A stretch of DNA of 64,000 bases from Bacillales bacterium (GCA_020633845.1 JACKCW010000002.1:14332-78331); one strand, 5' to 3'; positions 39,556-53,997 are shown, numbered from the stretch's first letter. Numbers and translations: made by a program. Notes: generated by a model from the sequence alone, not told the origin.

Positions 39556-39562
39556 AACTTCA

Positions 39563-40807
39563 TTATACCGCAACATTATAGACTTTAGAAATGGAATCTT
39601 TTCTAAGGACGACAAACACTAGCGTAGCTACCATATTAATCGCCATGGCACCAAACACTATCCACCTGAGATCAACCACTTCTCCCAGTGCTCCTGATAC
39701 AAGTTGACCCGTAACGCTACCTAGACCGGTTGTCGCCATATAGAAAAGACTATTGAATCGGCCTCTTTTTTCGTTCGGGACATAATTTTGGGTAGAACTT
39801 GTTCTAATGGTAAAGGAAGTCACGGCTAAGATGCCGCAGATGAAACTGATGATATACATAATAGGAAGTGTGGAAAACAACATTGCACCTTGAAGAACTG
39901 AGGTTGCAATATAGACAAAAAGTGCAATTTTATAATTGTTTTCCGGTTTACTGCTTTTAAAATAATGAATGATGGCCCCAATCACTCTTCCAAGGGCACC
40001 GACGGCCATAACAAAAGAGTAATCTTGTATTGTGTAGATGACACTTGATTCAAAAAAAGGCAGTAGCATTGTTGCAAAAGCGGAATACGCCATCATATTA
40101 AAAATAAAGTATATGGTAATAAATTTTAATCCCTTTTCTTTTTTTAGATATGAAAGACCTTCTTTTAAATCATTCATAAAATAACTGAGTTTATATACCT
40201 TCTCATCGGTTTTTTCCAGTGCCGGCTTATCGGTTGTAATAAACAATTCAAAAGTCGCTGTAAGCGTAAACAAGATACCAGAACCGATAAATAGGTATTC
40301 AACGCCGATGGTCTTGTATAAGAAGGCGGCAAGCGGGACCATTAAAGTAGAAGCTATCGGATAAATCATTGATGATATCGAATAAGCCTTTGAATAATTT
40401 CCTTTTGATACTAATGTCGGATAAAAAGAGTCATAGGCTATTTGGTAAAACGCGTTTTGCGAACCGATTATAAAACCCAAAGCAAGAATGAGAAAGTAAC
40501 TATCAGTCCAGCCTGCAAGATACATTAAGGCAATAATTATATAAAAAGATCCGGTTAGATAATCAAGAAAAACAATTATTTTCTTGCGGGAAAAACGATC
40601 TAAAAACGGTCCGACAAAGAAACTGACTATTACATAAGGAACAAGAGAAACTGTAGTGTATATCGCATAAAGCAAGGTTGATTCAGTATTTTGATACACT
40701 AAAAGACCAAGGGAAAAAGAGGCAACGCATTGCCCGACCATTGATATAATTGTTCCGATAGTAATAAGTGAAAAATCACTTGTCCAGAGTTTATTTCTCG
40801 TTTCCAT
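39563..40807 (-). CDS. MFS transporter
   Basis: About 12 TM helices and the loop motif GPFLDRFSRKK between TM2 and TM3. Confidence 0.8.
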   Translation of the reverse strand: METRNKLWTSDFSLITIGTIISMVGQCVASFSLGLLVYQNTESTLLYAIYTTVSLVPYVIVSFFVGPFLDRFSRKKIIVFLDYLTGSFYIIIALMYLAGWTDSYFLILALGFIIGSQNAFYQIAYDSFYPTLVSKGNYSKAYSISSMIYPIASTLMVPLAAFLYKTIGVEYLFIGSGILFTLTATFELFITTDKPALEKTDEKVYKLSYFMNDLKEGLSYLKKEKGLKFITIYFIFNMMAYSAFATMLLPFFESSVIYTIQDYSFVMAVGALGRVIGAIIHYFKSSKPENNYKIALFVYIATSVLQGAMLFSTLPIMYIISFICGILAVTSFTIRTSSTQNYVPNEKRGRFNSLFYMATTGLGSVTGQLVSGALGEVVDLRWIVFGAMAINMVATLVFVVLRKDSISKVYNVAV

Positions 40808-40884: not shown

Positions 40885-41895
40885 TTATCTTGCGCCCTTA
40901 TCGTAAGGAATACCTTCCATCTTAGGTGCTCTAGATTTCTTAGATGTAAAGGCCAAGACAACCAAAGTAACAATATACGGAAGCATTTTGTAAATTGAGT
41001 CTCCAGTTCCTTGAGCAAGATTGGAAAATGAAGGAAGGAAGTCGATTCCAGAACTGTATTTTCCAAGAGCGTTAAAGAAAGCGAATATAAGGGCGGCTCC
41101 AAGAATATTTTGCGGTTTCCAGTTACCAAAAATCATAACGGCAAGAGCTAGGAACCCAAAACCGGCCACTCCGGCTCCCGGTGCTACCCCGGATGTCGCG
41201 ATAAAGGCCCACATAATACCGCCAAAACCAGCTAGAAGACCAGATAAACCGACACCAATATATCTTGTGGTATAAACACCGATTCCGGCAGATGCAGCCG
41301 CTTGCGGATGTTCGCCGCACGACATCAGTCTTAAACCAAATCTAGTTTTATATAACACGATAGTCGATATGATCCAGATAAGGATAGCGATTGGGGTAGT
41401 TATAGCAAATCCTTTAAACAAGAGAATTCCAAAGAATGAGTTTCTAAATTCTTCACTAAAGCCTAAATTAAAGGTAACCCAGTCATAGTTGAATAAAACT
41501 GTAGTAGAGCCGGCAGAACTAAATTCCGATTGAATAGATGATACTAAAAGGTAACAGAAGGCGGGAGCAAAAATATTTAAAGCCGTTCCGCCAATTGTCT
41601 GGTCGGCTTTCATGTGAATTGAGGCAAATGCGAGAAGCATCGAATAGATACAGCCAGAAAGGGCGGCTACTAAAACAGCAATTAAAACTGCCCATTGCCC
41701 GGCAACTTCACCAAAGCCGTTCATGTTAAATGCTCTTATCGTAAGAGCCCCGAAAGTCGCACCTACTATCATTGTTCCTTCAAGACCGATATTAATGGTT
41801 CCGCTTCTTTCAGTAAACATTCCTCCTAAAGCAACAACCACTAAACAAAGCGCATAAAGTAAGGTTGAATTAATTAAACCAGGAAGCAGCGTCAT
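40885..41895 (-). CDS. BMP-family (nucleoside) ABC transporter permease, NupQ-like
   Basis: A polytopic BPD_transp_2-type protein (GGMFTERSGTINIGLEG), the last gene of a lipoprotein-ATPase-permease-permease order. Confidence 0.8.
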   Translation of the reverse strand: MTLLPGLINSTLLYALCLVVVALGGMFTERSGTINIGLEGTMIVGATFGALTIRAFNMNGFGEVAGQWAVLIAVLVAALSGCIYSMLLAFASIHMKADQTIGGTALNIFAPAFCYLLVSSIQSEFSSAGSTTVLFNYDWVTFNLGFSEEFRNSFFGILLFKGFAITTPIAILIWIISTIVLYKTRFGLRLMSCGEHPQAAASAGIGVYTTRYIGVGLSGLLAGFGGIMWAFIATSGVAPGAGVAGFGFLALAVMIFGNWKPQNILGAALIFAFFNALGKYSSGIDFLPSFSNLAQGTGDSIYKMLPYIVTLVVLAFTSKKSRAPKMEGIPYDKGAR

Positions 41896-43118
41896 TGCTT
41901 CTCACCTCCTTTTATATCCGCTATAACAGGCGGTTTATTTAATATATTTGATTGGTTGGATATTGCTAGGTCTCTCTTTACCCGGCCTTTTAAAATTAAG
42001 TTGCGGAAGAAGAGTGAGAAAGCGCTGAAATAAATAATTGTCGATGTTATAACACTTACTATTTCAGTATTATAAACTGGTTGCAGATTATCGCCACCGA
42101 CCTTAAGGAAGGCAATAAATAACCCGCTGAAGATGACGCCTATCGGGTTGGATCCACCGAGAAGAGCCACTGAAATTCCGTCGAATCCGGCCTGTTGTAA
42201 TACTTCTTCGGTTTTATAAACCGCCCCATTATTACCGGTAAGGTAGTAAAGAGCGCCGCCGACACCGGCTAAAGCCCCCGCAACTACCATCGAAAGGATA
42301 ATGTTCTTCTTATCATTGATTCCGGCATATTTAGCAGCGTTTTTATTTAATCCGCATGCTTTAAGTTCATAGCCGAAAGTTGTTTTATATAGTATTACCC
42401 AAACCACTATCGCAAAAACAATAGCGACGATAATGCCGACTGATACGTTGTCGTTACCGGCAAATAAACTTGCAAGATTTAAACGCGAAAGAATAATCCC
42501 GTCGCCGGTAAGAGTTAATGTTCGACTGGAATCGGCGCCTAAAGACTGAATAGCTGGTGTATTATATACAAAAATATTCACAAGATAGAGACCAATCCAG
42601 TTTGTCATAATACATGTTATAACCTCGTTTATATTAAGATATGCCTTAAACAAACCAGGAATAGCGCCCCAGATAGCACCGGCTATAAGGGCCGCAAATA
42701 TCGAAACGTACCAAGGAAGATGTAACATTCCGGCACAAATTATTGCTGCTATTCCACCGAACAGATATTGTCCGGAAGCACCGATATTAAACAAACCGGT
42801 TTTAAACGCAAAAGCCACGGAAAGCCCGGTCATAATTAGAGGCATCGCATAATAAAGCACTTGACCGATATTATACTTAAGAGTAGTAAAGCGTCTTAAA
42901 TATTCCGAATAACTTGAAGGATTAGAAAGGCCTAAACTTAAGATCTTTTTCATTCCCCAACTTGCCGAACTGAATCGTCCGGTAATCGCGCTTACCGAGC
43001 TTGATTTAGTGGCGCTGTATGTGACGAGTAAAACAACAAAGGCCAGAATAAGACCGATTACGATACATAAAAGCGTCGCTACTATGGAAGATAATTTAGT
43101 CAGAGTTTTAGTTTTCAC
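41892..43118 (-). CDS. BMP-family (nucleoside) ABC transporter permease, NupP-like
   Basis: A polytopic protein (FNIGASGQY) that overlaps the downstream permease gene by 4 nt. Confidence 0.8.
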   Translation of the reverse strand: MKTKTLTKLSSIVATLLCIVIGLILAFVVLLVTYSATKSSSVSAITGRFSSASWGMKKILSLGLSNPSSYSEYLRRFTTLKYNIGQVLYYAMPLIMTGLSVAFAFKTGLFNIGASGQYLFGGIAAIICAGMLHLPWYVSIFAALIAGAIWGAIPGLFKAYLNINEVITCIMTNWIGLYLVNIFVYNTPAIQSLGADSSRTLTLTGDGIILSRLNLASLFAGNDNVSVGIIVAIVFAIVVWVILYKTTFGYELKACGLNKNAAKYAGINDKKNIILSMVVAGALAGVGGALYYLTGNNGAVYKTEEVLQQAGFDGISVALLGGSNPIGVIFSGLFIAFLKVGGDNLQPVYNTEIVSVITSTIIYFSAFSLFFRNLILKGRVKRDLAISNQSNILNKPPVIADIKGGEKQ

Positions 43119-44663
43119 TTACTTTTTTTCCTCCACATTTTGTCTTTTGGCGCCGGCCATGTAAAGGCCAAGTTCTTTAACATTAGTTTTCTTCGGATCG
43201 AATTCGCCGACGATTTCGCCTTCATACATCACAAGAATCCTGTCTGATACATCCATTACTTCATCAAGCTCTAAAGATATAAGGAGAATTGCCGATCCTT
43301 CATCTCTAACTTTGATTAATTGTTTATGAATATATTCAATAGCGCCGACATCAAGACCTCTTGTCGGCTGGACAGCGATAAGAAGAGGCGCATCATAATC
43401 AAGTTCTCTTGCAACAATAACTTTCTGCTGATTTCCGCCGGACATACTTCTAGCCATCGTATCACTGCCTTGACCAGACCTAATGTCATATTGTTTTATC
43501 AGTTCGTCCGAATAAGTCGCAATCTCTTTTTCCTTCATAAAACCGGCAGACTGAAACTTTTTTTCAAAATACTTTTTCATAACTAAGTTGTAAGAAAGAG
43601 GATAATCAAGGATTAAACCATACTTCTGTCTATCCTCGGGAATGTGTGCCATTCCTACTAAATTTCTTTCTCTGATGCTCATGTTTGTTATATCTTTACC
43701 GCGTAATTCTATATGACCTGAATCAACCTTCTCAAGACCGGAAAGGGCGTATGCCAGTTCGGTCTGACCATTTCCTTCAATCCCGGCAATACAAAGTATT
43801 TCTCCGGCATGAACAGAAAACGAGATGTTGTTATTAACCATTTTTTTATTTAATTTGGACTTAACACAGAGATTATCAACTTTTAAAACAGTATCTTTAG
43901 GCTCTGCTTTCTTTTTATCAACAGTAAAGGAAACTTTTCTTCCTACCATCATTTCCGCAAGTTTTTCTTTGGTAGTATTCTTAACATTGACTGTCGCCAC
44001 ATGTTTGCCTTTTCTAAGAACAGTAACTCTGTCGGCAACCGCCATTATTTCGTTCAACTTGTGAGATATAAAAAGAATAGATTTTCCTTCTTTGGCGAAG
44101 TTTCTCATTATTTCCATCAGCTCGTCTATCTCTTGTGGAGTTAAAACAGCTGTCGGTTCATCAAAAATAAGAATATCCGATGATCGGTAGAGCATTTTTA
44201 GTATTTCCACTCTTTGTTGCATACCTACCGAAATATCCTGAACTTTCGCATCCGGATCAATCTTTAAACCATATTTTTCGGAAAGATCCATTACTTTTTT
44301 GCGGGCTTTTTTTCTATCAACGAAGATTCCGCCCTTCATTGGCTCCGAACCCAAAATAATATTATCCAGAACCGTAAATATATCAACTAATTTGAAATGT
44401 TGATGGACCATGCCTATTCCAAGGTTGGTCGCATCGTTCGGGTCATTTATCTTTACTTCTTTCCCGTCTTTTTTGATAATACCCTTTTCCGGCTGATAAA
44501 GACCGAAAAGAACGCTCATGAGAGTCGATTTTCCGGCGCCGTTTTCTCCTAAAAGAGCATGTATTTCTCCCTTTTTTAATTGAAGAGAAATATTATCGTT
44601 AGCAATGATGCCTGGGAAGGACTTTGTAATATTTAACATCTCGATTACATAGTTTTCTTCCAT
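43119..44663 (-). CDS. Duplicated-domain ABC ATPase of the BMP/nucleoside transporter, NupO-like
   Basis: Two nucleotide-binding domains: GENGAGKST, the degenerate signature VGMQQRVE and ILIFDEPTA in the first; SGGNQQKV plus a degenerate Walker A in the second. Confidence 0.85.
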   Translation of the reverse strand: MEENYVIEMLNITKSFPGIIANDNISLQLKKGEIHALLGENGAGKSTLMSVLFGLYQPEKGIIKKDGKEVKINDPNDATNLGIGMVHQHFKLVDIFTVLDNIILGSEPMKGGIFVDRKKARKKVMDLSEKYGLKIDPDAKVQDISVGMQQRVEILKMLYRSSDILIFDEPTAVLTPQEIDELMEIMRNFAKEGKSILFISHKLNEIMAVADRVTVLRKGKHVATVNVKNTTKEKLAEMMVGRKVSFTVDKKKAEPKDTVLKVDNLCVKSKLNKKMVNNNISFSVHAGEILCIAGIEGNGQTELAYALSGLEKVDSGHIELRGKDITNMSIRERNLVGMAHIPEDRQKYGLILDYPLSYNLVMKKYFEKKFQSAGFMKEKEIATYSDELIKQYDIRSGQGSDTMARSMSGGNQQKVIVARELDYDAPLLIAVQPTRGLDVGAIEYIHKQLIKVRDEGSAILLISLELDEVMDVSDRILVMYEGEIVGEFDPKKTNVKELGLYMAGAKRQNVEEKK

Positions 44664-44684
44664 ATTTGCCTCCTTTTTGTAAAT

Positions 44685-44714
44685 AAGGTCATCACGCTTT
44701 CACGCGATGACCTT
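44685..44714 (-). promoter_or_regulatory. Intercistronic stem-loop between the lipoprotein gene and the ATPase gene
   Basis: A 12-bp stem (AAGGUCAUCGCG/CGUGAUGACCUU, one G-U pair) with a hexaloop and no U-run. It looks like an mRNA-stabilising or partial-termination element. Confidence 0.5.
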
Positions 44715-44736
44715 ATATTGATATTAATTTTTAATA

Positions 44737-46308
44737 CTATGCGTTGTAATCAACAGTAACGTGAGTTAAACCAGCAGGAACAGCAGCAGTCGAATTGTTA
44801 ACAACAACTGAACCATCCTTTAGTGATGCAAATAAAGTGTTATATTCAGCAACTGTGAAAGTAGTGAGTCTCCAAGAAGATTCAGAAGTAGGAAGTCCTA
44901 CGCAGTCTTCAGCAGCGCCAAGAGTTAAAGTAATACCGGCATGATCAACATCCCAAGCACCATCATTGTCATAGAAAGAAGTAAGAGCTTGATAAGTTGA
45001 TTCAACAAGTTTCTTTTCGGCAGAAGTGATAATTCTATCAGATTCAGCAGATTGGTCAACGTCGACACCGATTACTTTTCCCGAAGTTGTAGCTTCAGCA
45101 GCAGCAACTACAGAAAGGTAAATTCCGCCTCCGCAAGAGAATACAACTTCAGTTCCGGCAGCGTACCATGCATCCATCTTAGTCTTAAGATCGGCAGATG
45201 GAGAGAAAGTACCAGCGTAATTATATTTTATTGTAACGTTAACGTTTTTAGCAACAGCGGCAGCTTCAGCTCCCTGAACATACCCATAACCATATCTTAC
45301 AACGGCCGGAACACTCATTCCACCGATGAATCCAAGTTTAGTATATCCTTCCATAACGGCAGCATATCCAGCTAAATAACCAGCTTGTTCTTCTTGATAT
45401 AATATGCAGCAAGTATTTGCAGCAGTATAGTAAGTTGCATAGTCAGCAGTATGAGGTTCTCCATCAAGTAATAAGAATGCTACATCAGGGTATTGACTCT
45501 GAAGGTTATAAATAGCCTCTTCAAATAAGTATCCTGGGCAAACGACAACATCAGCACCAGCAGCGATAGCGGCTTTGATTGAAACTTCACGAGCGGCTGT
45601 AGAGTCCTCGTTTGGACGCCAATACGCATAAGTAAGATTATTTTCTTCAGCATATTTGATAACGCCGTTCCAAGCTCCTTCGTTGAATGATTTATCATCA
45701 ATATTTCCAACGTCAGTAACAAGAGCGATATCAATTTCAGTTACAGGAACAAGACCCATAGCTTTAGTGCCGTCTTCAAGTTCAGCATAAACTACATAGT
45801 AAGTTCCGGCTTCAAGAGCACCAGGGTTGTCTCCCCAAGTTCCTTCTCCGTCAGTAGCAGTTTCCTGATAAGGAGGTAAATAAAGAGTATCAGGTGTTAA
45901 ATTGTCAATAGCGCCAGATTCTTTATTTTGTGCCCAGAAATCGATAGTATCAGGATCGCCAATAGCGGTTCTTACAACCTTAACAGCTAAATTTCCGTTG
46001 AATGTAACAACTTCGCCGTCAATTTTGTATTCAAAAGACCAGCCAGCATCGGTAGCCGGAAGAACAACTTGAAGAATGTATAAAGCGGTAGCACCTTTGA
46101 GTTCAGCTTTAATTGATGCAACTCTTTCGTCGTTAATAGCGATAGCAGTCATCTTGTAAGTTTCATCTCCAACCGCCGTTCCCCAACCATTGAATTGTCC
46201 TACTGCATAGTAGTCTTTTTCAGCATTCTCAAGGATAGTTCCGGCACATCCTGCAAGAAGCAAAGTAGAGCAGGCAAGCAACAGTAATGCAAAAATTCTT
46301 TTCATCAT
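44737..46308 (-). CDS. BMP-family (PnrA/NupN-like) substrate-binding lipoprotein with an extra ~170-aa N-terminal CBM-like domain
   Basis: Lipobox LLLAGC. The C-terminal two thirds are BMP-like (LVTDVGNIDDKSFNEGAWNG...GVDVDQ). The N-terminal domain has GQFNGW ... FEYKIDGE motifs. Confidence 0.8.
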   Translation of the reverse strand: MMKRIFALLLLACSTLLLAGCAGTILENAEKDYYAVGQFNGWGTAVGDETYKMTAIAINDERVASIKAELKGATALYILQVVLPATDAGWSFEYKIDGEVVTFNGNLAVKVVRTAIGDPDTIDFWAQNKESGAIDNLTPDTLYLPPYQETATDGEGTWGDNPGALEAGTYYVVYAELEDGTKAMGLVPVTEIDIALVTDVGNIDDKSFNEGAWNGVIKYAEENNLTYAYWRPNEDSTAAREVSIKAAIAAGADVVVCPGYLFEEAIYNLQSQYPDVAFLLLDGEPHTADYATYYTAANTCCILYQEEQAGYLAGYAAVMEGYTKLGFIGGMSVPAVVRYGYGYVQGAEAAAVAKNVNVTIKYNYAGTFSPSADLKTKMDAWYAAGTEVVFSCGGGIYLSVVAAAEATTSGKVIGVDVDQSAESDRIITSAEKKLVESTYQALTSFYDNDGAWDVDHAGITLTLGAAEDCVGLPTSESSWRLTTFTVAEYNTLFASLKDGSVVVNNSTAAVPAGLTHVTVDYNA

Positions 46309-46326
46309 TTCTCCTTTTTATGTCTT

Positions 46327-46372
46327 GCGTTTTGAAAACGCTTTCTATATACATTAATAACGCAAATGTCTA
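46327..46372 (-). promoter_or_regulatory. Candidate promoter (TAGACA-17-TATAGA) overlapped by the dyad GCGTTTTGAAAACGC and a cre-like TGAAAACGCTTTCT site
   Basis: A perfect 7-1-7 palindrome at 46327..46341. The 14-mer at 46333..46346 matches the CcpA cre consensus TGWAANCGNTNWCA at 13 of 14 positions. Confidence 0.4.
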
Positions 46373-46448
46373 GAAAAAACAAGAAAAAAGTCTAGAAACA
46401 ATGTAGTTGCTCAAATATTTATAAAAATAGAGAAGTTCATTCGTTTAT

Positions 46449-47021
46449 TTATGCACTAATTATAATCAGTCCCATGGCTTTATATGTACTGAATTCAGCA
46501 TAAACGAGATAATAAGTCCCATCTTCAAGAGCACCAGGGTTGTCTCCCCAAGTTCCTTCTCCGTCAGTGGCAGTTTCCTGATAAGGAGGCATATAAAGAG
46601 TATCCGGTGTTAAATTGGTAATAGCTCCAGATTCTTTATTTTGTGCCCAGAAATCGATAGTATCAGGATCGTCTTTGGCAGTTCTAACAACTTTAATGGC
46701 TTGGTTTCCGTCGAAAGTAACGGTTTCGCCATCAATTTTGTACTCAAATGTCCAGCCAGCTCCTTCTCCCTGAAGGGCAACCTGAAGTACATAAACGGCA
46801 GTAGCACCTTTAAGTTCAGCTTTAATTGATGCAACTCTTTCGTCGTTAATAGCGATAGCAGTCATCTTGTAAGTTTCATCTCCAACCGCCGTTCCCCAAC
46901 CATTGAATTGTCCTACTGCATAGTAGTCTTTTTCAGCATTCTCAAGGATAGTTCCGGCACATCCTGCAAGAAGCAAAGTAGAGCAGGCAAGCAACAGTAA
47001 TGCAAAAATTCTTTTCATCAT
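46449..47021 (-). CDS. Stand-alone CBM-like domain lipoprotein (copy 2, a chimera made by the tandem duplication)
   Basis: Its first 75 codons match the BMP lipoprotein gene at the DNA level except for one synonymous SNP, and its last ~150 codons are identical to copy 3. Lipobox LLLAGC. Confidence 0.7.
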   Translation of the reverse strand: MMKRIFALLLLACSTLLLAGCAGTILENAEKDYYAVGQFNGWGTAVGDETYKMTAIAINDERVASIKAELKGATAVYVLQVALQGEGAGWTFEYKIDGETVTFDGNQAIKVVRTAKDDPDTIDFWAQNKESGAITNLTPDTLYMPPYQETATDGEGTWGDNPGALEDGTYYLVYAEFSTYKAMGLIIISA

Positions 47022-47039
47022 TTCTCCTTTTTATGTCTT

Positions 47040-47085
47040 GCGTTTTGAAAACGCTTTCTATATACATTAATAACGCAAATGTCTA
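47040..47085 (-). promoter_or_regulatory. Second identical copy of the promoter/dyad/cre-like element (within the repeat)
   Basis: Identical sequence shifted by 713 bp, with the cre-like 14-mer at 47046..47059. Confidence 0.4.
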
Positions 47086-47161
47086 GAAAAAACAAGAAAA
47101 AAGTCTAGAAACAATGTAGTTGCTCAAATATTTATAAAAATAGAGAAGTTCATTCGTTTAT

Positions 47162-47767
47162 TTATGCACTAATTATAATCAGTCCCATGGCTTTATATGT
47201 ACTGAATTCAGCATAAACGAGATAATAAGTCCCATCTTCAAGAGCACCAGGGTTGTCTCCCCAAGTTCCTTCTCCGTCAGTGGCAGTTTCCTGATAAGGA
47301 GGCATATAAAGAGTATCCGGTGTTAAATTGGTAATAGCTCCAGATTCTTTATTTTGTGCCCAGAAATCGATAGTATCAGGATCGTCTTTGGCAGTTCTAA
47401 CAACTTTAATGGCTTGGTTTCCGTCGAAAGTAACGGTTTCGCCATCAATTTTGTACTCAAATGTCCAGCCAGCTCCTTCTCCCTGAAGGGCAACCTGAAG
47501 TACATAAACGGCAGTAGCACCTTTAAGTTCAGCTTTAATTGATGCAACTCTTTCGTCGTTAATAGCGATAGCAGTCATCTTGTAAGTTTCATCTCCAACC
47601 GCCGTTTCCCAACCATTGAATTGTCCTACTGCATAGTAGTCTTTTAATTCATTTTCAAGAACAACTTCATTATATGGATCATCTGTTGTTCCGCCTAAAA
47701 TAAAATCACAGCCGGAAAGTAAAAATGTGCAAATAAAAGCAAATAAAATCATAAATATTTTTTTCAT
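47162..47767 (-). CDS. Stand-alone CBM-like domain lipoprotein (copy 3, with its own signal peptide)
   Basis: Start MKKIFMILFAFICTFLLSGC (AAGGTGA SD), with the same GQFNGW...FEYKIDGE domain. The ORF-track start at 47788 is probably too far upstream. Confidence 0.7.
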   Translation of the reverse strand: MKKIFMILFAFICTFLLSGCDFILGGTTDDPYNEVVLENELKDYYAVGQFNGWETAVGDETYKMTAIAINDERVASIKAELKGATAVYVLQVALQGEGAGWTFEYKIDGETVTFDGNQAIKVVRTAKDDPDTIDFWAQNKESGAITNLTPDTLYMPPYQETATDGEGTWGDNPGALEDGTYYLVYAEFSTYKAMGLIIISA

Positions 47768-47810
47768 TATTTCACCTTGATGTAGCACTCGTTGTAATAT
47801 AGTTTAATGA

Positions 47811-48578
47811 TTACGCTTTAATTAGTTTATTTTTCGCCTTTATATCTTTAAGAATAAAAGGAAGATGAATTAATCCTTCAAGAGTAAAAGCCAATAATAC
47901 ATACTTAATAATATACATAACATACCCTTGATTAAGGTTTAAATACGGAAGACCATCGATTGGCGCATCGGCCGTAAAACAGAAATTATAGTACGAACCC
48001 CCGGTTGATAACATCGAGTTCATATAAATTGAACCGATAAAAACGGCAAGAAGAATTAAAATAGTGTGTCCTAGATCTACGGCATGAATATCAACATACT
48101 TGTAAACCACAATCGAAAGACCGAATGTTAAAAGACAAGCATGATAGATGAAATATTCATATGCTAGATAAGACGTAAATGAACACGACGAGATAGTAAC
48201 AATAAATACCGGAAGTATACCACTAAAAACACCTGTCGCAAAAACAAAGGCTAAAAGTGTGTGTCTCACATTCTCTTTTTTAGTTAATAAAGCCGCTAAA
48301 ATAAAAAACGGTTGGATAGAACAAAGTTGAAAAGGAAGGCCGAGTTTGCTTAATATGTAATGCCCGGTTTCTTCATAAGTCATTTGTATGAAATACGCAT
48401 ATTTCATTAATTCGGAAACTAAAGAAACACAAAGCATTATTATCATCAAAGTTTTAAGTGACGGTTTGAATTTTCCGATTAATACCATCCCCGAGACCGC
48501 GATAACAAAAACAATGCCGATCCAAAGTAAATGAGCTCCTCCATAAGCTCCGTCTGTCAGTAATAAATTGATTTGCAT
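47811..48578 (-). CDS. Polytopic membrane protein (YwaF/TMEM164-like?)
   Basis: About seven TM helices and an LPFQLCS motif reminiscent of the YwaF family. I prefer the start MQINLL. Confidence 0.45.
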   Translation of the reverse strand: MQINLLLTDGAYGGAHLLWIGIVFVIAVSGMVLIGKFKPSLKTLMIIMLCVSLVSELMKYAYFIQMTYEETGHYILSKLGLPFQLCSIQPFFILAALLTKKENVRHTLLAFVFATGVFSGILPVFIVTISSCSFTSYLAYEYFIYHACLLTFGLSIVVYKYVDIHAVDLGHTILILLAVFIGSIYMNSMLSTGGSYYNFCFTADAPIDGLPYLNLNQGYVMYIIKYVLLAFTLEGLIHLPFILKDIKAKNKLIKA

Positions 48579-48672
48579 ATGAACCCCCATAGTAAATATT
48601 CACATAGTTAGAATTCTATCACAACTAGAATAAAGAGTGAACACAAAAAAAGAAAAGACCGCCGAAACGGTC

Positions 48673-50289
48673 TTATCTGAGTATAACTGAGGTATGAGGA
48701 GCGATTGTCAGAATCGATCCGGAAAGGGTCGCATCTCCACTTCCGATGACAGCTGCAATAAATGTAAAGTTGAAGTCGGTTCCTTTTGAGAGATCAATTG
48801 TCAAAGTCGTAGAATAGGAAGTATTGTGAAATACACCCACCGTTCTTCCCTCATATGTAGAAAGAAAACCGCCAAAAGTTGTATAGTTCGCAAAATTAAG
48901 GGCAGTGTATTCGCCTAAAGCTATTTCCGGGTTGCATTTTCTAATAATAAGCAATTTTTTATAGTAGTTATAAAGGCTTGTCTTATCCTTCTTCTGTTCT
49001 TTAACTGTTCCGTTTGTCTGAAGCGAAGAATCATAAGTGGCACCGACAGGATCTTCAACCGTATCGTTATCGCCCCAAAGCATAGCCAGTCTCCGGTTGG
49101 CATCGGTGTTTTCGGTGCCTCTTGAACCTTTCATGCCAATCTCTTCGCCATAATAGATAAATGGCGTACCATAGGTCAAAATGTAAAGGTTGGCCGCCAT
49201 TTGCATTTCGCCTTCCTTAATTGATAAGTAGCCGGCAGCTCTATTCATATCGTGGTTAGATATAAAAGGGGTAAGAATTGCATCAGGATTAACTATTTCC
49301 ACCGAGTTTCTGTACTGTGATAAGTAACTAACATAACTGTTTACGCTTTCGTATTGTTTAGCGCAACTAGTAATAGCGCCATCGCTTCCAGACATCCCGA
49401 AATCAAAACAACTTATTGCCTCATAGTAGGAGGCAATTTCGCCGTCATTTGACCAATCTTCTCCGACTAAATAATAGTCATCGCTATATTTTTGGCATTC
49501 GCTGTCGACCCATTTTAGAAATTCAATATTTTTAGCATCGTCGCCGAGATAAAAATATTTGACAGCATCTAAGCGAAATCCGTATACTCCGACATCTTCC
49601 ATCCAGTATCTAATGATTTCGGATATTTCCGCTTTAACATCCTCGTTATCAAGATTAAGTTCCGGCATGCTGCGATCAAAATTTGCTTCATAGTAATAAC
49701 CATTTGAAAGAGCATAGTATGTTTTTCCGGTTTCTTCTTGATCTTCAGTGACTATTGAATAATAACTTATATACTTGTTTGAATAATCGCCTTCGCTTAT
49801 CGCCTTTGATGCTGTTTTAAACCAAGCGTTTAATGTCGATGTATGGTTAAGAACAAGGTCGATAATAACGTGCATATTTCTATCGTTGCATTCATTAACA
49901 AGATTAATCATATCTTCATTAGTTCCATAGGAACTATCAACACTCATATAATCAATCACATCATATTTATGATAGCTTCCAGCCTTCATTATCGGCATCA
50001 ACCATATACCGTCAACACCAAGGGATTTGCCGCTTGAAGGGTCGCCGTCATTCAGATAATCAAGACGGTTAATAAGACCATTGATATCACCGATTCCGTC
50101 CCCGTCGGAGTCGCTATAGGCTCCGACGAAGATTTCATAGTAAACGGAATTATTCCCGGTATCGTAAACAATTTCAGAACCATTACTATCGGTCAGAAAA
50201 GTATAATCGGTTATCTTTATTTCTCCGCAGCCGGATAAAAAGAGGATAAAAAGAATTAAGAGTGGAAGGATTAAAAATTTCTTTTTCAT
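48673..50289 (-). CDS. GH13 alpha-amylase-family lipoprotein
   Basis: Lipobox LFLSGC plus GH13 regions DLVLNHTS, GFRLDAVKY, VGEDW and FISNHD. Confidence 0.88.
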   Translation of the reverse strand: MKKKFLILPLLILFILFLSGCGEIKITDYTFLTDSNGSEIVYDTGNNSVYYEIFVGAYSDSDGDGIGDINGLINRLDYLNDGDPSSGKSLGVDGIWLMPIMKAGSYHKYDVIDYMSVDSSYGTNEDMINLVNECNDRNMHVIIDLVLNHTSTLNAWFKTASKAISEGDYSNKYISYYSIVTEDQEETGKTYYALSNGYYYEANFDRSMPELNLDNEDVKAEISEIIRYWMEDVGVYGFRLDAVKYFYLGDDAKNIEFLKWVDSECQKYSDDYYLVGEDWSNDGEIASYYEAISCFDFGMSGSDGAITSCAKQYESVNSYVSYLSQYRNSVEIVNPDAILTPFISNHDMNRAAGYLSIKEGEMQMAANLYILTYGTPFIYYGEEIGMKGSRGTENTDANRRLAMLWGDNDTVEDPVGATYDSSLQTNGTVKEQKKDKTSLYNYYKKLLIIRKCNPEIALGEYTALNFANYTTFGGFLSTYEGRTVGVFHNTSYSTTLTIDLSKGTDFNFTFIAAVIGSGDATLSGSILTIAPHTSVILR

Positions 50290-51195
50290 CTATTTGACAG
50301 ATCCGGCTGTCACTCCTTCGATATAGTATTTCTGCATCGAAAGGAAGAGGGTTACAATCGGTACGGCAACGCAGGTACAGCCTGCGCAGAACACCGTAAA
50401 GTTGTTGGAATCCACTCTGTTTCCATAAAGCATATCGTAAAGTCCGACTGCAACCGTCAGTAATTCTTTGTTTTCGACGCCAAGAATGACTCTTGCGAAA
50501 ATGAAGTCCATCCAAGGGCCGGTAAAAGACAATAAAGCCGTATAAATAATTATCGGTTTGGATAAAGGTAAAATTATTTTAAAGAATACCTGGGCATTAG
50601 TCGCTCCGTCTAGCCTAGCTGATTCGATTAAGGAATCTGGTATAACATCAAAGAATCCTTTTGCAATATAGAATCCAAGACCGGCACCGGCCGAATTAAC
50701 AAGAATGAGGGCAAAAAGCGATTGCGTAAGGTGCATTGACTTTAATATGTAATAAACGGCTATCATACTCATAAAACCAGGGAAAAGGCCGAGTATCATC
50801 GCAAATCTCAAGTAGGTTCTTCTCCAGCTAAATTTAATTTTACTCATTACATAAGCTACGCAAAGAGTGAAAATAGTGGAAATGATACAAGAGAAAGTTG
50901 AGACAAAGAGAGTATTTAAAAACCAAGTCGGAAAATAAGTTTCGGTAAATAGTATTTTGAAATTCTCGAAACCGAATCCAGTCGGCCAATAATTGGACAC
51001 GACGATACCGATTAAATTTCCGGAATCGTTATATTCGACACGAAAAGCGTTTAAAACTATCCATAGGATAGGATATAACCAAATGACCGAAAGTAGAATT
51101 AAAACGATGTAGGCAAGAGCGTTGGATATTCTTTGTTGTGTTTTGTAACTCTTGCTTCTTTTATTGAGACTAATCACATTATCATGTTTAATCAT
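50290..51195 (-). CDS. malG: Maltose/maltodextrin ABC transporter permease (MalG-like)
   Basis: EAA loop ESARLDGATNAQVFFKIILPLSKP. Confidence 0.8.
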   Translation of the reverse strand: MIKHDNVISLNKRSKSYKTQQRISNALAYIVLILLSVIWLYPILWIVLNAFRVEYNDSGNLIGIVVSNYWPTGFGFENFKILFTETYFPTWFLNTLFVSTFSCIISTIFTLCVAYVMSKIKFSWRRTYLRFAMILGLFPGFMSMIAVYYILKSMHLTQSLFALILVNSAGAGLGFYIAKGFFDVIPDSLIESARLDGATNAQVFFKIILPLSKPIIIYTALLSFTGPWMDFIFARVILGVENKELLTVAVGLYDMLYGNRVDSNNFTVFCAGCTCVAVPIVTLFLSMQKYYIEGVTAGSVK

Positions 51196-52580
51196 TGGAA
51201 AGCATCCTCCTGTTTAAACGCCTTGGAGCGGGAATAGAAAATAAGCGTGATAGATGCGGTAATTATGAAGGTCATTATCGAAATTACGGCCCCCATATTA
51301 TACTCGTTTTCATCAATAGTCAGTTTGTATAACCAAGTAACCAAGAGGTCTGTTTCGCCGGCTTTGAAGCCTGGATTAGTCGGGCCGCCGCCGGTAAGCA
51401 GGTAAATGATATTGAAACTCGTTATATTACCGACAAATGAACTGATTAAATACGGAGTAGTTACAAACAGAATATAAGGGAAGGTTATTTTCCAGAATGT
51501 CTGTCTTCTTGTTGCTCCGTCAACCGTTGCGGCTTCATATAGATCCTTTGGGATATTCATCAGGATACCCGATGTTTGAAGCATAGTATAAGGTATTCCT
51601 ATCCAAAGGTTAATTAAAAGAACCATGCCTCTCGCCGTAAATTCATTTGCGGCCTGATCTAAAAATTCCACCGGTGAGGCTAAAATACCCAGTTTTACCA
51701 GTAGTGTATTAACGGGTCCCAAATTACCCAATATTTTTCTTACAGCTAGAAGTGTAATAAACTGTGGAAGAGCGATAGTGAGAATAAAAATAGTTCTCCA
51801 TAAAACCTTAGCTTTAATTCCGCGTTTATTAATTAGTATACCCAAAAATATACCTAAGAAATAGTTAGAGAAAGTGGCGATAAAGGCCCAAACAAAAGTC
51901 CATCCTAAAACCGGAAAAAACATAGTTCCGATTTCTGATGCCGAACCGTTAAATATTTGGGCAAAATTGGAAAATCCGACCCAGTCAACCAAATTCTGAC
52001 CGGTATGAAGACTATCATAATTAGTGAATGCGATTAAAATCATAAAGATAGTCGGAAGTAAAGTAAAGATGAGAATGCCGACCATTGCCGGAATCATCAT
52101 GGTAAGATGGAATTTGGAATCGGTAAGATCGTGTAAATCTTCCTTAAAATTGGAAACCTTCTTTCCTTCCTTAAGCAGCATATCATTATGGTATGAACTT
52201 TTGGTGTTCGATACATATAATGCGAGATAAAGGAATGTAATTCCTATCATGAGTACTCCAAAAAGGAGCATCAGCATTGAATTATCGGCAGCGGTATTAA
52301 TGTCTCCGGGATTATCTCCAAGAGTTATAAGATTAGCAAAGGCTTTATATCCAAATGGAGTTGAATTTATTTCCGGGCATAGAACCATCAGTAAAACAAA
52401 ACCGACCTGGCATACCAAGAAAATCATGCCCTTCCAAATCTGTCCTCTCGCCAGGTTTCCGAATCCCATAATCAGATAAGATATTTTGGTATAAATCGAA
52501 CCGCGAACAAATCTGTCATAAAAATTCTTGAAACCTTTTCCGATCTTTTTGAAGACATTTGGTTTTTTCTTTTTTGTCAT
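51192..52580 (-). CDS. malF: Maltose/maltodextrin ABC transporter permease (MalF-like)
   Basis: EAA loop EAATVDGATRRQTFWKITFP; 462 aa. Confidence 0.8.
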   Translation of the reverse strand: MTKKKKPNVFKKIGKGFKNFYDRFVRGSIYTKISYLIMGFGNLARGQIWKGMIFLVCQVGFVLLMVLCPEINSTPFGYKAFANLITLGDNPGDINTAADNSMLMLLFGVLMIGITFLYLALYVSNTKSSYHNDMLLKEGKKVSNFKEDLHDLTDSKFHLTMMIPAMVGILIFTLLPTIFMILIAFTNYDSLHTGQNLVDWVGFSNFAQIFNGSASEIGTMFFPVLGWTFVWAFIATFSNYFLGIFLGILINKRGIKAKVLWRTIFILTIALPQFITLLAVRKILGNLGPVNTLLVKLGILASPVEFLDQAANEFTARGMVLLINLWIGIPYTMLQTSGILMNIPKDLYEAATVDGATRRQTFWKITFPYILFVTTPYLISSFVGNITSFNIIYLLTGGGPTNPGFKAGETDLLVTWLYKLTIDENEYNMGAVISIMTFIITASITLIFYSRSKAFKQEDAFQ

Positions 52581-52638
52581 AAATATCTCCTTAAAAGCGA
52601 AAAAAGCAGGGATCTGCTTTTTTCTTAATTTTGTCTAA

Positions 52639-53997
52639 TTAGTTTTGTGCTCCGGTTTTCCAAATTGTTTCACATGTCTGAAGACAACTTAGAATTGATG
52701 CATCGTCCGGATAAGCGTTATCCGTATTTTTAAGCATAGCGTAGATAAGATCCGGTGCGCCTTTAGAATAAAACCATGTGTTATATTTTTGAACATAACC
52801 AAACGGCTGAGCGATTCCGTAATTAAACATCTCTATTTCGCAGGAGGCAAGTTTAGCTGCTAAAGTGTCGGCGCTCATTGCTGCAAATTCATCAGCGGCG
52901 TTTTTATATGCCGGCAGGTTTGCGCAAGTTTCAAATGACTGTTCCTGAACGCTAACGCTTGAAAGATAAATGAGAATGTCTTCAAGATATGCTTGATAGT
53001 CGCTGCCTTTTTTCATAACAAAGCATTTGCAGTCGGTGAAAGTGCCGCTTTGATAAACAGTTCCGGCAGCAATTGTTCCGTATGCATCAGCATTAGTTAT
53101 AGTAAATTCCGGCAGAACGGCGATTCCAAGATTACTGCCAAGAGCGGCTAGAGCAGCATTGTAGTTCCATGCGCCGCCGATTAAGCACAGCGAGTATTCG
53201 TCTTTCAGTTCTTCTTCCCATCCGGATGATCCGGCTTGGTCAATACCGCCGCTTGTAAGTTGGAAATATCTTCTTCCCCATTTCATTGCGGCTATTGTGT
53301 CGTCACCTGTCGCATAGCATGCTGAGGCTACACCATTTTCATAAAGTTGAACGCTAGTTGTAAGTTCATTAGAAGAATTATAGTATTCGGACAAAAGCAA
53401 GAATGAATTATTGTATCCGTCAGTTCCGAGGATGGTTGCGGCTTTTACTTCGTGCCCGACTGTACTGCTATAAGCGATCGCTTTAGCGGAAATTCCTTCC
53501 CAAGTTTGTACATCTTCAGCGGTTAAAACGCTGGAATTATAATATAAAACTAAAGATTGAGACACATATGGAACGGCAAAATAATAAGTAGTTCCGTCGA
53601 CGGTCGATTTAGATACATCGAGGAAAGTCTGAGGATTGTCGGCTTCCATTTGTGCAATTAAAGCTTGATTGGTAATGGCGGCAATTGAAGATGACCCGGC
53701 GGTTAATTTACCCAAATTATCATGAGGAATAGTGAAAATGTCTGGTCCCGCTTCCGTATCATCTAAGAATTGTGCCGCAGCGGCTCCGCTGTCGACTCCT
53801 TTTACTACTATCTCAGAAGGGAAGTTTTCATCGTGTGTCGCATTATAATTCTCGACATAGTCATCAACCATTTGCTGATAGAATTCCTGAGATTCGGTTC
53901 CAACCCAAATCGTCAAGCTTTTCTTACCGCAAGCAGTTAATGAAAACGCTAACATCAATACTAATGCCAGTGACAGTAACTGTGCTATCTTTTTCAT
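52639..53997 (-). CDS. malE: Maltodextrin-binding lipoprotein (MalE/MdxE-like)
   Basis: Lipobox SLTACG, SBP family 1-like sequence, and the first gene of the operon. Confidence 0.75.
   Translation of the reverse strand: MKKIAQLLSLALVLMLAFSLTACGKKSLTIWVGTESQEFYQQMVDDYVENYNATHDENFPSEIVVKGVDSGAAAAQFLDDTEAGPDIFTIPHDNLGKLTAGSSSIAAITNQALIAQMEADNPQTFLDVSKSTVDGTTYYFAVPYVSQSLVLYYNSSVLTAEDVQTWEGISAKAIAYSSTVGHEVKAATILGTDGYNNSFLLLSEYYNSSNELTTSVQLYENGVASACYATGDDTIAAMKWGRRYFQLTSGGIDQAGSSGWEEELKDEYSLCLIGGAWNYNAALAALGSNLGIAVLPEFTITNADAYGTIAAGTVYQSGTFTDCKCFVMKKGSDYQAYLEDILIYLSSVSVQEQSFETCANLPAYKNAADEFAAMSADTLAAKLASCEIEMFNYGIAQPFGYVQKYNTWFYSKGAPDLIYAMLKNTDNAYPDDASILSCLQTCETIWKTGAQN

What the first reader, a model, noticed from the sequence alone, without database searches (positions are those of the whole stretch)
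46088..47645. Near-perfect 713-bp tandem duplication generates an extra chimeric lipoprotein gene with its own copy of the promoter/operator region
The unit has three parts: the 5' 225 nt of the BMP lipoprotein gene, the 140-bp upstream intergenic region, and the 3' 348 nt of the small lipoprotein gene. It is present about 2.2 times, with only two SNPs that I could find (46099/46812, synonymous; 46894/47607, Gly/Glu). The middle gene (46449..47021) is therefore an exact chimera: the signal peptide and first 75 codons of the BMP gene fused to the C-terminal part of the upstream small gene. This is the product expected from unequal crossing-over between the identical 5' segments. Such an array can expand and contract. 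That would change the dosage of a surface lipoprotein domain and the number of promoter/operator copies feeding the downstream nucleoside ABC operon. It could act as a copy-number or antigenic-variation mechanism, as seen for mollicute-type surface lipoproteins. It is also an assembly hazard, since repeats can be collapsed or expanded.
Basis: seen in the sequence. Interest (0 to 1): 0.6.

Follow-up and report, generated by a model that had tools for sequence, protein, structure and literature searches.

The report
Recent tandem duplication of lipoprotein cassette
A 713-base stretch spanning the end of one small surface-lipoprotein gene, a control region and the start of the next gene is copied head-to-tail without error, making one extra hybrid gene; this is an ordinary unequal-recombination product, at a locus where related bacteria also carry different numbers of the same module.

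Summary
Window 46088-46932 repeats at 46801-47645 (period 713, ~2.18 copies). It contains a 794-nt perfect block and only two mismatches.

All three genes are on the minus strand:
- S (47162-47767), a small lipoprotein.
- M (46449-47021), the chimera.
- B (44737-46308), an N-terminal "D" module fused to a BMP/PnrA-type ABC substrate-binding domain.

The two "SNPs" are not post-duplication mutations. They are older S/B differences that bracket an 81-nt core identical in all three genes, and the crossover lies in that core. No substitution has accumulated since the event.

The best explanation is one very recent unequal homologous recombination (or replication slippage) between paralogous D cassettes.

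Related contigs carry 1, 2 or 3 D cassettes at the same position after a maltodextrin operon. Their segments are mosaics that swap between free-standing and BMP-fused genes. The array therefore has expanded and contracted over evolutionary time.

I found nothing pointing to a dedicated phase- or antigenic-variation switch: no short repeats, no long homopolymer, no invertible element and no recombinase within ±10 kb.

The source is a MAG, so a mis-counted assembly loop cannot be excluded without reads.

Verdict: ordinary and well explained, a new member of a known kind. The uncharacterised D module is a side interest.

The parts
46088..47645 (.). Whole near-perfect repeated region: 2.18 copies of a 713-nt unit
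   Evidence: Offset-713 identity profile with two mismatches only
46100..46893 (.). Perfect 794-nt block, first copy (identical to 46813-47606)
   Evidence: Exact extension test
46813..47606 (.). Perfect 794-nt block, second copy
47162..47767 (-). S: small D-family lipoprotein (201 aa from the ATG; NCBI H6687_02220). It has its own signal peptide with lipobox LLSGC. It starts 43 nt after the TMEM164 stop, so it is probably co-transcribed with the maltodextrin operon. It is the positional orthologue of the conserved last gene of that operon.
46449..47021 (-). M: chimeric D lipoprotein (190 aa; 189 aa from the second Met; NCBI H6687_02215). The 5' part is identical to B (signal peptide, lipobox LLAGC) and the 3' part is identical to S.
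44737..46308 (-). B: D-BMP fusion lipoprotein (523 aa). An N-terminal D module (aa ~5-192) is fused to a BMP/PnrA substrate-binding domain (PF02608, aa 196-475).
46309..46448 (-). Intergenic control region IG1, copy upstream of B (140 nt)
   Evidence: 91.5% identical to the L001 IG1
47022..47161 (-). IG1, duplicated copy upstream of M (100% identical)
46327..46346 (.). Palindrome GCGTTTTGAAAACGC overlapping a cre-like site TGAAAACGCTTTCT (one mismatch to TGWAANCGNTNWCA); candidate operator
47040..47059 (.). Second copy of the palindrome / cre-like site
46813..46893 (-). Crossover interval in M: an 81-nt core identical in S (47526-47606), M and B (46100-46180). It is bracketed by diagnostic bases. 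On the + strand: B is G46099/C46181, M is A46812/C46894, S is A47525/T47607.
45781..46087 (-). Older, diverged part of the D module inside B (beta type, ~84% nt identity to S/M)
47811..48590 (-). TMEM164-family membrane protein gene. It lies between the GH13 amylase gene and S, and is present only in the window and the L001/L041 lineage.
48673..53997 (-). Upstream maltodextrin/starch operon: sugar-binding lipoprotein (52639-53997), two permeases (51192-52580, 50290-51195) and a GH13 amylase lipoprotein (48673-50289). D genes follow this operon in >30 related loci.
40885..44663 (-). Downstream ABC transporter genes served by B: a double ABC ATPase (43119-44663) and two BPD_transp_2 permeases (41892-43118, 40885-41895)
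44664..44736 (-). B-ATPase intergenic region with a strong hairpin (AAGGTCATCGCG...CGTGATGACCTT followed by ATTT); possible attenuator/terminator
   Evidence: Read from sequence; not tested

Best explanation
This is a genuine and very recent tandem duplication.

Inferred earlier state: the locus was S - IG1 - B. S (a small surface lipoprotein made of one 'D' module) and B (the same kind of module fused to a BMP-type ABC substrate-binding domain) shared a 132-nt, 98.5%-identical stretch near their 5' ends. That stretch was probably a prior gene-conversion tract.

The event: one unequal exchange between sister chromosomes, or replication slippage between these direct repeats 713 nt apart, occurred within the 81-nt perfectly identical core. 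It produced S - IG1 - M - IG1 - B.

Consequences:
- M is the chimera B-5'/S-3'. It makes an alpha-type D lipoprotein almost identical in its mature form to S.
- M carries B's signal peptide and sits behind B's control region (a cre-like palindrome) rather than behind the maltodextrin operon.
- The net effect is one extra dose of a D lipoprotein, under different regulation, plus a second IG1 copy upstream of the ABC operon.
- The two 794-nt identical repeats make the array intrinsically unstable, so it can collapse back or expand further.

What is shown: the sequence anatomy, the crossover interval, and cassette number variation and mosaicism in relatives. What is inferred: the mechanism (RecA-dependent versus slippage), expression, instability, and any selective value. 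I see no evidence that this is a dedicated variation system. It is the latest event in a recombination-prone paralogue cluster.
For: - Exact 713-nt periodicity, with a 794-nt perfect block and an intact chimeric ORF.
- The three-way alignment places the only two variant sites as parental markers on either side of an 81-nt core shared by S, M and B. Every base of M and its IG1 equals either S or B, which is the signature of a single homologous exchange.
- Outside the shared stretch, S and B are old paralogues. The middle segment is 70% nt identical and 53 codons differ, 19 of them synonymous-only.
- Relatives show the same cassettes in other numbers at the same position after the GH13 gene: L045 and L048 have only D-BMP (1 cassette); L046/L047 have D + D-BMP (2); L001/L041 have an S remnant + D + D-BMP (3, one decayed).
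- Mosaicism is clear. The alpha middle segment is free-standing in the window but BMP-fused in L001 (97.7% identical), and the beta segment is the reverse (94.7%). The 3' conserved segment is more alike within genomes (95-98%) than between them (91-94%).
- Window B carries the signal peptide that sits on the free-standing gene in L001. Other D-BMP fusions carry L001's 'spC' type. This implies an earlier contraction followed by the present expansion.
- Independent D-D tandem-domain proteins with 81-91% internal identity exist in other lineages.
Against: - The sequence comes from a metagenome-assembled genome (NCBI 'MAG: Bacillales bacterium', H6687_02215/02220). No reads were available.
- A loop traversed once too often in an assembly graph collapsed at the 81-nt core would give exactly this perfect structure.
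- No second assembly of the same species was found to confirm three cassettes. The closest relative is only ~85.5% identical in the flanks.
- Perfect identity could be exaggerated by short-read polishing of repeats.
- Expression of M and promoter activity of IG1 are not shown.
Confidence: 0.65

Rival explanations
1. Assembly artefact. The true genome has S - IG1 - B. The assembler went round the graph loop (core - S 3' end - IG1 - B 5' end - core) twice instead of once, because the 81-nt core shared by S and B collapses at k-mers <= 81.
For: - The source is a MAG.
- The copies are 100% identical, and the junction lies exactly in the stretch that would be a collapsed node.
- No independent assembly shows the same three-gene state.
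Against: - Assemblers usually collapse such repeats rather than expand them.
- Any read >= ~90 nt spanning the core would resolve the path, because the flanking SNPs mark each copy.
- The contig is long (173 kb). There is a circumstantial match to a 5-contig Izemoplasmatales MAG from a Nanopore+Illumina hybrid study (size, GC 0.367 vs 0.360, taxon). If correct, long reads spanned the array, but this link is unverified.
- Copy-number differences at this locus are real in other, independent assemblies.
Confidence: 0.2
2. Functional copy-number or antigenic variation system. The array switches length at high frequency in the population. This would tune the dose of the surface D lipoprotein and the number of promoter/operator copies, or supply donor cassettes (alpha/beta) to re-equip the D module of the BMP binding protein. 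Chimeric Vsp/Vpma lipoproteins in mycoplasmas would be the analogue.
For: - The organism belongs to a Mollicutes-related group: its relatives are Izemoplasmatales/Acholeplasmataceae.
- Perfect 794-nt direct repeats are recombinogenic.
- Cassette number and alpha/beta placement differ among relatives.
- Chimeric lipoprotein genes arising by recombination at a 38-bp homology are documented for M. agalactiae vpma and cited for M. bovis vsp (PMC5634654).
Against: - There are only three cassettes.
- No intragenic short tandem repeats, no homopolymer longer than 6 nt in IG1, no invertible element, and no recombinase within ±10 kb.
- Mature S and M differ only in a short N-terminal linker and one residue, so there is little antigenic novelty.
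- The alpha/beta divergence shows many synonymous changes, consistent with old paralogues under purifying selection.
- The variation seen is between species (~85% or lower identity), not within a population.
Confidence: 0.1
3. No duplication event. M is the orthologue of the free-standing middle gene seen in L001 (P0002). Its 3' part was overwritten by S and the region upstream of B was overwritten by M's upstream region, through two separate gene conversions.
For: - L001/L041 also have a free-standing gene with the same signal peptide and the same IG1 between the S remnant and the BMP gene.
- Gene conversion is evident at the locus.
Against: - It needs two independent conversion tracts whose ends happen to produce an exact 713-nt period and a single continuous 794-nt perfect block.
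- It must also erase L001-type IG2 and the third signal peptide without trace.
- A single exchange explains everything.
Confidence: 0.04

Closest known systems
Tandem gene duplication by unequal homologous recombination or replication slippage between direct repeats (classical bacterial duplication-amplification)
   Same: - Head-to-tail copies with an exact period.
- A junction inside pre-existing homology, and a unique chimeric join point.
- The reciprocal product would be a deletion, and the one-cassette architecture is indeed seen in relatives L045 and L048.
- Expected instability of the repeats.
   Different: - The unit is small (713 nt) and cuts through two genes, so it creates a complete new in-frame chimeric gene rather than extra whole-gene copies.
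- Copy number is only ~2.2, with no evidence of amplification under selection.
Chimeric variable surface lipoprotein genes of mycoplasmas (M. agalactiae vpmaXY' formed at a 38-bp homology; M. bovis vsp chimera), PMC5634654 and its reference 29
   Same: - Adjacent paralogous lipoprotein genes in a Mollicutes-related lineage.
- Recombination at a short identical stretch yields a hybrid that is 100% one parent upstream and 100% the other parent downstream.
- Duplications and deletions occur in the cluster.
   Different: - Those families have dedicated switches (Xer1 site-specific inversion, a single movable promoter), many members, and repetitive, highly variable mature regions under immune selection.
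- Here there is no switch element and no recombinase.
- The mature domains are well conserved globular modules, and the host appears to be a free-living environmental organism.
Partial gene conversion / concerted evolution of tandem paralogues
   Same: Segment-wise mosaic identity. The shared 132-nt tract is 98.5% identical, the 3' segment is more similar within than between genomes, and the middle segment retains two old types.
   Different: The finding itself is a length change (duplication), not only sequence homogenisation.
Surface glycan-binding lipoproteins encoded with starch-utilisation genes (e.g. SusE/SusF of Bacteroides thetaiotaomicron)
   Same: - D is a lipoprotein encoded immediately after a sugar-binding protein, two permeases and a GH13 amylase lipoprotein in >30 loci.
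- It is predicted to be a mostly beta module.
- SusF is the only starch-related structure to appear, very weakly, in both the fold search and the profile search.
   Different: - There is no significant sequence or fold match (Foldseek E > 0.2; HMM E = 0.84).
- The D module is also fused to peptide, amino-acid and BMP binding proteins and to large repeat proteins, which argues for a more general surface role.
- Binding has not been tested.

Membership tests
Tandem duplication by unequal homologous recombination | Direct head-to-tail repeats with a constant period and no intervening foreign DNA | tested here: met
   Period 713, continuous from 46088 to 47645
Tandem duplication by unequal homologous recombination | The join point lies within sequence homologous between the two parental sites | tested here: met
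   The 81-nt core is identical in S, M and B and is flanked by parental marker bases
Tandem duplication by unequal homologous recombination | The novel junction is a precise chimera of the two parents, with no untemplated bases | tested here: met
   M is identical to B upstream and to S downstream of the core
Tandem duplication by unequal homologous recombination | Instability or copy-number heterogeneity in the population | not testable with these tools
   No reads are available. Only between-species variation (1-3 cassettes) was seen.
Mollicute variable surface lipoprotein systems (Vsp/Vlp/Vsa/Vpma type) | Cluster of lipoprotein genes sharing a highly conserved 5' region (upstream sequence plus signal peptide) | tested here: inconclusive
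   M and B share an identical IG1 and signal peptide, but only because of the duplication. S has a different upstream region and signal peptide.
Mollicute variable surface lipoprotein systems (Vsp/Vlp/Vsa/Vpma type) | Mature regions built of short in-frame tandem repeats that vary in number | tested here: not met
   TRF found no arrays in 44000-50000. The D module is a conserved globular domain with pLDDT 93.6.
Mollicute variable surface lipoprotein systems (Vsp/Vlp/Vsa/Vpma type) | Switch element: a promoter homopolymer/SSR tract, or an invertible segment with a site-specific recombinase gene nearby | tested here: not met
   The longest homopolymer in IG1 is 6 nt. The only inverted repeat is a weak 23-nt, 74% pair. 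No recombinase or transposase domains were found in genes from 34.6 to 60.7 kb.
Mollicute variable surface lipoprotein systems (Vsp/Vlp/Vsa/Vpma type) | High-frequency phenotypic switching | not testable with these tools
   Needs cultures or population sequencing
BMP/PnrA-family ABC substrate-binding lipoprotein (gene B) | PF02608 domain above the gathering score, a lipoprotein signal peptide, and adjacent CUT2-type ABC ATPase and permeases | tested here: met
   PF02608 scores 127.6 bits against a 24.1-bit cut-off; the lipobox is LLAGC; a double ABC ATPase and two BPD_transp_2 permeases lie downstream
BMP/PnrA-family ABC substrate-binding lipoprotein (gene B) | Nucleoside as the substrate | not testable with these tools
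   There is only family-level similarity and no NCBIfam equivalog hit
cre / CcpA operator (palindrome in IG1) | Match to TGWAANCGNTNWCA near a promoter or the start of a catabolic operon | tested here: inconclusive
   The IG1 site has one mismatch, and a perfect site sits in the 5' end of the sugar-binding gene at 53941-53954. However, window-wide there are 14 matches against 6.1±3.2 expected, and 2 of 100 shuffles reach 14. An AAGCGTTTWCA-like core recurs upstream of D or D-BMP genes in L001, L045 and L046.
SusE/SusF-like starch-binding lipoproteins (D module) | Detectable fold or sequence similarity to CBM-like starch-binding domains | tested here: not met

The most novel reading that the evidence does not exclude
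The D cassettes may form a simple recombinational shuffling system in wall-less, free-living Izemoplasmatales-like bacteria. Free-standing D genes at the end of the maltodextrin operon would act as donors and acceptors for the N-terminal surface module of an ABC substrate-binding lipoprotein. Unequal exchange and gene conversion would then repeatedly change which D variant (alpha or beta), which signal peptide and which control region are attached to the transporter, and how many D lipoproteins are displayed. The duplication seen here would be one snapshot of a population-level, selectable copy-number polymorphism. In addition, D would be a previously undescribed extracellular module that has been recruited onto at least three unrelated families of ABC binding proteins.
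Probability: 0.1. Interest if true: 0.6.

Novelty: new member of a known kind. Interest (0 to 1): 0.3.

Why it matters
Taken alone, this is a clean textbook example. The parental markers pin the crossover of a tandem duplication to an 81-nt interval, and the product is a complete new chimeric lipoprotein gene with a re-wired control region.

It matters in three practical ways:
- It flags a place where the MAG assembly must be checked.
- It shows that D-module number at this locus is evolutionarily labile (1-3 copies in relatives).
- It draws attention to an uncharacterised, confidently foldable surface module. That module is conserved at the end of maltodextrin operons in Izemoplasmatales/Acholeplasmataceae and is repeatedly fused to ABC binding proteins.

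If population data showed copy-number heterogeneity, the locus would be a simple model for recombination-driven surface-protein dosage variation in environmental relatives of mycoplasmas.

Tried and rejected
- Exact-protein look-ups of M, S (two starts), B and P0001 in public assemblies found nothing. No independent assembly of the same strain could therefore be compared.
- The genome-contig scan returned only relatives with <=56% identity, not the source genome. The metagenome scan returned one close contig, L041, which is the same type as L001.
- TRF reported nothing because the period exceeds its 500-nt limit.
- Rfam found no RNA family in the window. The IG1 RNA fold is not unusual, with z = -1.37, so I rejected a riboswitch or structured leader.
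- The sigma-70 consensus scan found no convincing promoter in IG1. The promoter remains inferred.
- I considered D to be a dedicated starch-binding protein on the basis of synteny. I downgraded this after finding D fused to unrelated binding-protein families and to large surface proteins.
- I tried to identify the source study to learn the assembly method. An Izemoplasmatales MAG (HK-STAS-FIRM-1) in a Nanopore+Illumina hybrid study fits in size, GC and taxon, but no accession or contig length could confirm the link. I treat it as a lead only.
- A site-specific recombinase or invertible-element switch was looked for and not found.
Full report
**1. The observation**

All relevant genes lie on the minus strand.
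- S (47162-47788 from the farthest start; 47162-47767 from the ATG that NCBI uses) is a ~200-aa lipoprotein.
- M (46449-47021) is a 190-aa lipoprotein.
- B (44737-46308) is a 523-aa lipoprotein. Residues 196-475 match the BMP/PnrA substrate-binding family PF02608.
- B is followed by a double ABC ATPase and two permeases.

An identity profile at an offset of 713 nt is essentially 100% from 46088 to 46932 (partner 46801-47645). Mismatches occur only at 46099/46812 and 46894/47607. A single perfect block runs 46100-46893 = 46813-47606, 794 nt. It is the only large repeat in the 64-kb window.

**2. What the two SNPs really are**

I aligned S, M and B in register. A 132-nt stretch is shared by all three genes. 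At the first variable site M equals B (Gly codon) and S differs. At the second, M equals S and B differs.

On the + strand the marker pairs are G/C in B (46099, 46181), A/C in M (46812, 46894) and A/T in S (47525, 47607). The 81 nt between the markers are identical in all three.

The SNPs are therefore parental differences that bracket the exchange point. Every base of M and of the intergenic region in front of it equals either B or S, so no substitution has occurred since the event. Only codons 1-43 of M are demonstrably B-derived, and codon 70 onward is S-derived.

**3. The module that is being duplicated**

Beyond the perfect zone, B continues with ~84% nt homology to S and M (45781-46087). 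B therefore carries a complete copy of the small-lipoprotein module, here called D, in front of its BMP domain.

**4. Genomic context in relatives**

The family occurs mainly in Izemoplasmatales, Acholeplasmataceae and other 'Mycoplasmatota' MAGs. In more than 30 loci the order is sugar-binding protein, two permeases, GH13 amylase lipoprotein, D. This is often preceded by a divergent GH13 gene and followed by a phosphorylase.

The window has the same order on its minus strand (52639-53997, 51192-52580, 50290-51195, 48673-50289). A TMEM164-family gene is inserted before S. S starts 43 nt after the TMEM164 stop. S is therefore the positional orthologue of the conserved last gene of a maltodextrin operon and is probably transcribed with it.

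D-BMP fusions are rare. Among thousands of BMP homologues only P0042 (B itself), P0043, P0044, P0045 and P0047 have the extra N-terminal module.

**5. Cassette number varies at this very locus**

- L045 and L048: the D-BMP fusion follows the amylase gene directly (one cassette).
- L046/L047: a free-standing D gene plus D-BMP (two cassettes).
- L001 (ENA) and the nearly identical L041 (JGI): TMEM164, an internally deleted remnant of S, a free-standing D gene (P0002) and D-BMP (three cassettes, one decayed).
- The window: S, M and D-BMP (three cassettes).

L001 is the closest relative found but is only 85.5% identical in the flanks. These are therefore differences between species, not strains.

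**6. The cassettes are mosaics**

A nucleotide alignment and a segment table show the following.
- The 132-nt 5' stretch is 96-99% identical among window S, window B and L001 P0002. It is only 69% identical to the L001 BMP gene.
- The middle segment exists in two old types. Alpha is found in window S/M and in the L001 BMP gene (97.7% identical). Beta is found in window B and in L001 P0002 (94.7%). Alpha and beta are ~70-78% identical to each other.
- The next segment is more alike within genomes (95-98%) than between them (91-94%). That is the mark of gene conversion.
- The 3' tail of B matches the L001 BMP gene (93.4%).

A neighbour-joining tree agrees. The signal peptide on window B is the one carried by the free-standing gene in L001. 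The other D-BMP fusions carry L001's third type.

The simplest history runs in four steps:
- An L001-like three-cassette ancestor.
- A deletion by recombination between the free-standing gene and the BMP gene, giving S - IG1 - B.
- Conversion of the 132-nt tract.
- The present unequal exchange between S and B, giving S - IG1 - M - IG1 - B.

The reciprocal product of that last exchange would be a single D-BMP gene directly after the upstream operon, which is the L045/L048 architecture. Independent D-D double-module proteins with 81-91% internal identity in other lineages show that the module duplicates readily.

**7. The duplicated control region**

IG1 (140 nt) is 91.5% identical between the window and L001, against 85.5% for the flanks. 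It contains a perfect palindrome, GCGTTTTGAAAACGC. The palindrome overlaps a one-mismatch match to the cre consensus.

A perfect cre match lies in the 5' end of the sugar-binding gene at 53941-53954. The window-wide excess of matches is only modest, however: 14 against 6.1±3.2 expected. A similar AAGCGTTTWCA core recurs upstream of D or D-BMP genes in L001, L045 and L046.

IG1 shows no Rfam match, no unusual RNA fold, no consensus sigma-70 promoter and no homopolymer longer than 6 nt. No terminator follows S or M. That IG1 is a promoter/operator is plausible but is inferred, not shown.

**8. Consequences**

Mature S and mature M differ only in the linker after the lipidated cysteine and in one Gly/Glu residue. 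The duplication therefore adds a dose of an almost identical surface protein, but with B's signal peptide and behind IG1 rather than behind the maltodextrin operon. It also places a second IG1 upstream of the ABC operon. Whether this changes expression is unknown.

**9. Is it a variation system?**

The locus fails the tests for the mollicute variable-lipoprotein systems that could be run here.
- No intragenic short repeats.
- No switch tract.
- No meaningful inverted repeats.
- No recombinase or transposase from 34.6 to 60.7 kb.

Alpha and beta differ by many synonymous changes, as expected of old paralogues under purifying selection.

Chimeric lipoprotein genes formed by homologous recombination at short identities are known in mycoplasmas (vpma at 38 bp, and vsp; PMC5634654). 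The mechanism resembles these, but membership of such a system is not supported.

**10. Artefact risk**

The sequence is from an NCBI MAG (H6687_02215 and _02220 on a 173,089-bp contig). With k-mers of 81 or shorter, the core collapses into a simple graph loop. A mis-counted traversal of that loop would give exactly this perfect structure. Reads of ordinary length spanning both markers would prevent the error, and assemblers more often collapse than expand.

A hybrid Nanopore/Illumina study lists an Izemoplasmatales MAG whose size statistics, GC content and taxon are compatible. I could not confirm that it is the source.

I put the artefact at about 0.2.

**11. Side observation on D**

A profile search of 1.84 billion representatives found 235 clusters. 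Long members carry D together with:
- SBP_bac_5 or Peripla_BP_6 binding domains;
- Listeria-Bacteroides repeats plus RCC1 repeats;
- a beta-helix;
- cohesin/dockerin.

D is thus a general extracellular module that has been fused repeatedly to ABC binding proteins. A starch-binding role is suggested only by synteny.

**12. Verdict**

The structural and mechanistic reading is right. The SNPs are reinterpreted as parental markers. The 'expand and contract' idea is supported only between species. The antigenic or copy-number-variation function is unsupported.

This is a new member of a known kind and is of modest interest. A clear read-level test is available.

Noticed in passing
window 46449-47767 and 45736-46308; loci L002-L044: The small lipoprotein ('D' family, ~190 aa, no Pfam or NCBIfam model) is the conserved last gene of a sugar-binding protein / two permeases / GH13 amylase operon in >30 Izemoplasmatales, Acholeplasmataceae and Mycoplasmatota loci. 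Its AlphaFold model is confident (pLDDT 93.6) and has no significant PDB fold match.
   Followed up: partly
proteins P0170, P0179, P0182, P0184, P0199, P0203, P0212: The D module also occurs in large proteins. There it is fused to SBP_bac_5 or Peripla_BP_6 binding domains, Listeria-Bacteroides + RCC1 repeat proteins, a beta-helix protein and a cohesin/dockerin protein. An unannotated extracellular module has been recruited repeatedly onto different ABC binding proteins.
   Followed up: partly
L001 1160-1390 (and L041 1455-1685): In the closest relative, the S gene is a pseudogene remnant: the signal-peptide region is joined to the 3' tail with most of the D module deleted. The same IG1 follows it.
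   Followed up: yes
window 53941-53954: A perfect match to the cre consensus (TGAAAACGCTAACA) lies 43-56 nt inside the 5' end of the sugar-binding lipoprotein gene of the maltodextrin operon. This suggests CcpA-type catabolite control in this organism.
   Followed up: partly
window 44664-44736: There is a strong hairpin (AAGGTCATCGCG / CGTGATGACCTT followed by ATTT) between the binding-protein gene B and the ABC ATPase gene. It may be an attenuator that sets the ratio of binding protein to transporter.
   Followed up: no
L023, L024, L031, L027, L040: These lipoproteins carry two D modules in tandem (81-91% internal identity). In L023/L024/L031 they follow a Pro/Thr-rich (APTTE-type) linker after the lipobox. 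These are independent in-frame duplications of the same module.
   Followed up: partly
L045 1-420: A diverged D-like gene end (32-38 bits to the D profile) lies upstream of the sugar-binding gene in this relative. This is an additional, older paralogue on the other side of the operon.
   Followed up: no
window 47811-48590: A TMEM164-family (possible membrane acyltransferase) gene is inserted between the amylase gene and the D gene. It is present only in the window and the L001/L041 lineage, and absent from L045-L048 and from more distant loci.
   Followed up: no
window 38393-39615 (repeat 38874-38944 / 39458-39528): The only other repeat in the window is a 71-nt, 75% match between two adjacent chromate-transporter-family half genes (PF02417). 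This is an ordinary paralogue pair.
   Followed up: yes
window 1-24000 vs 32000-56000: G+C content rises from ~0.33 in the first 24 kb to ~0.385 between 32 and 56 kb. The cause was not examined.
   Followed up: no
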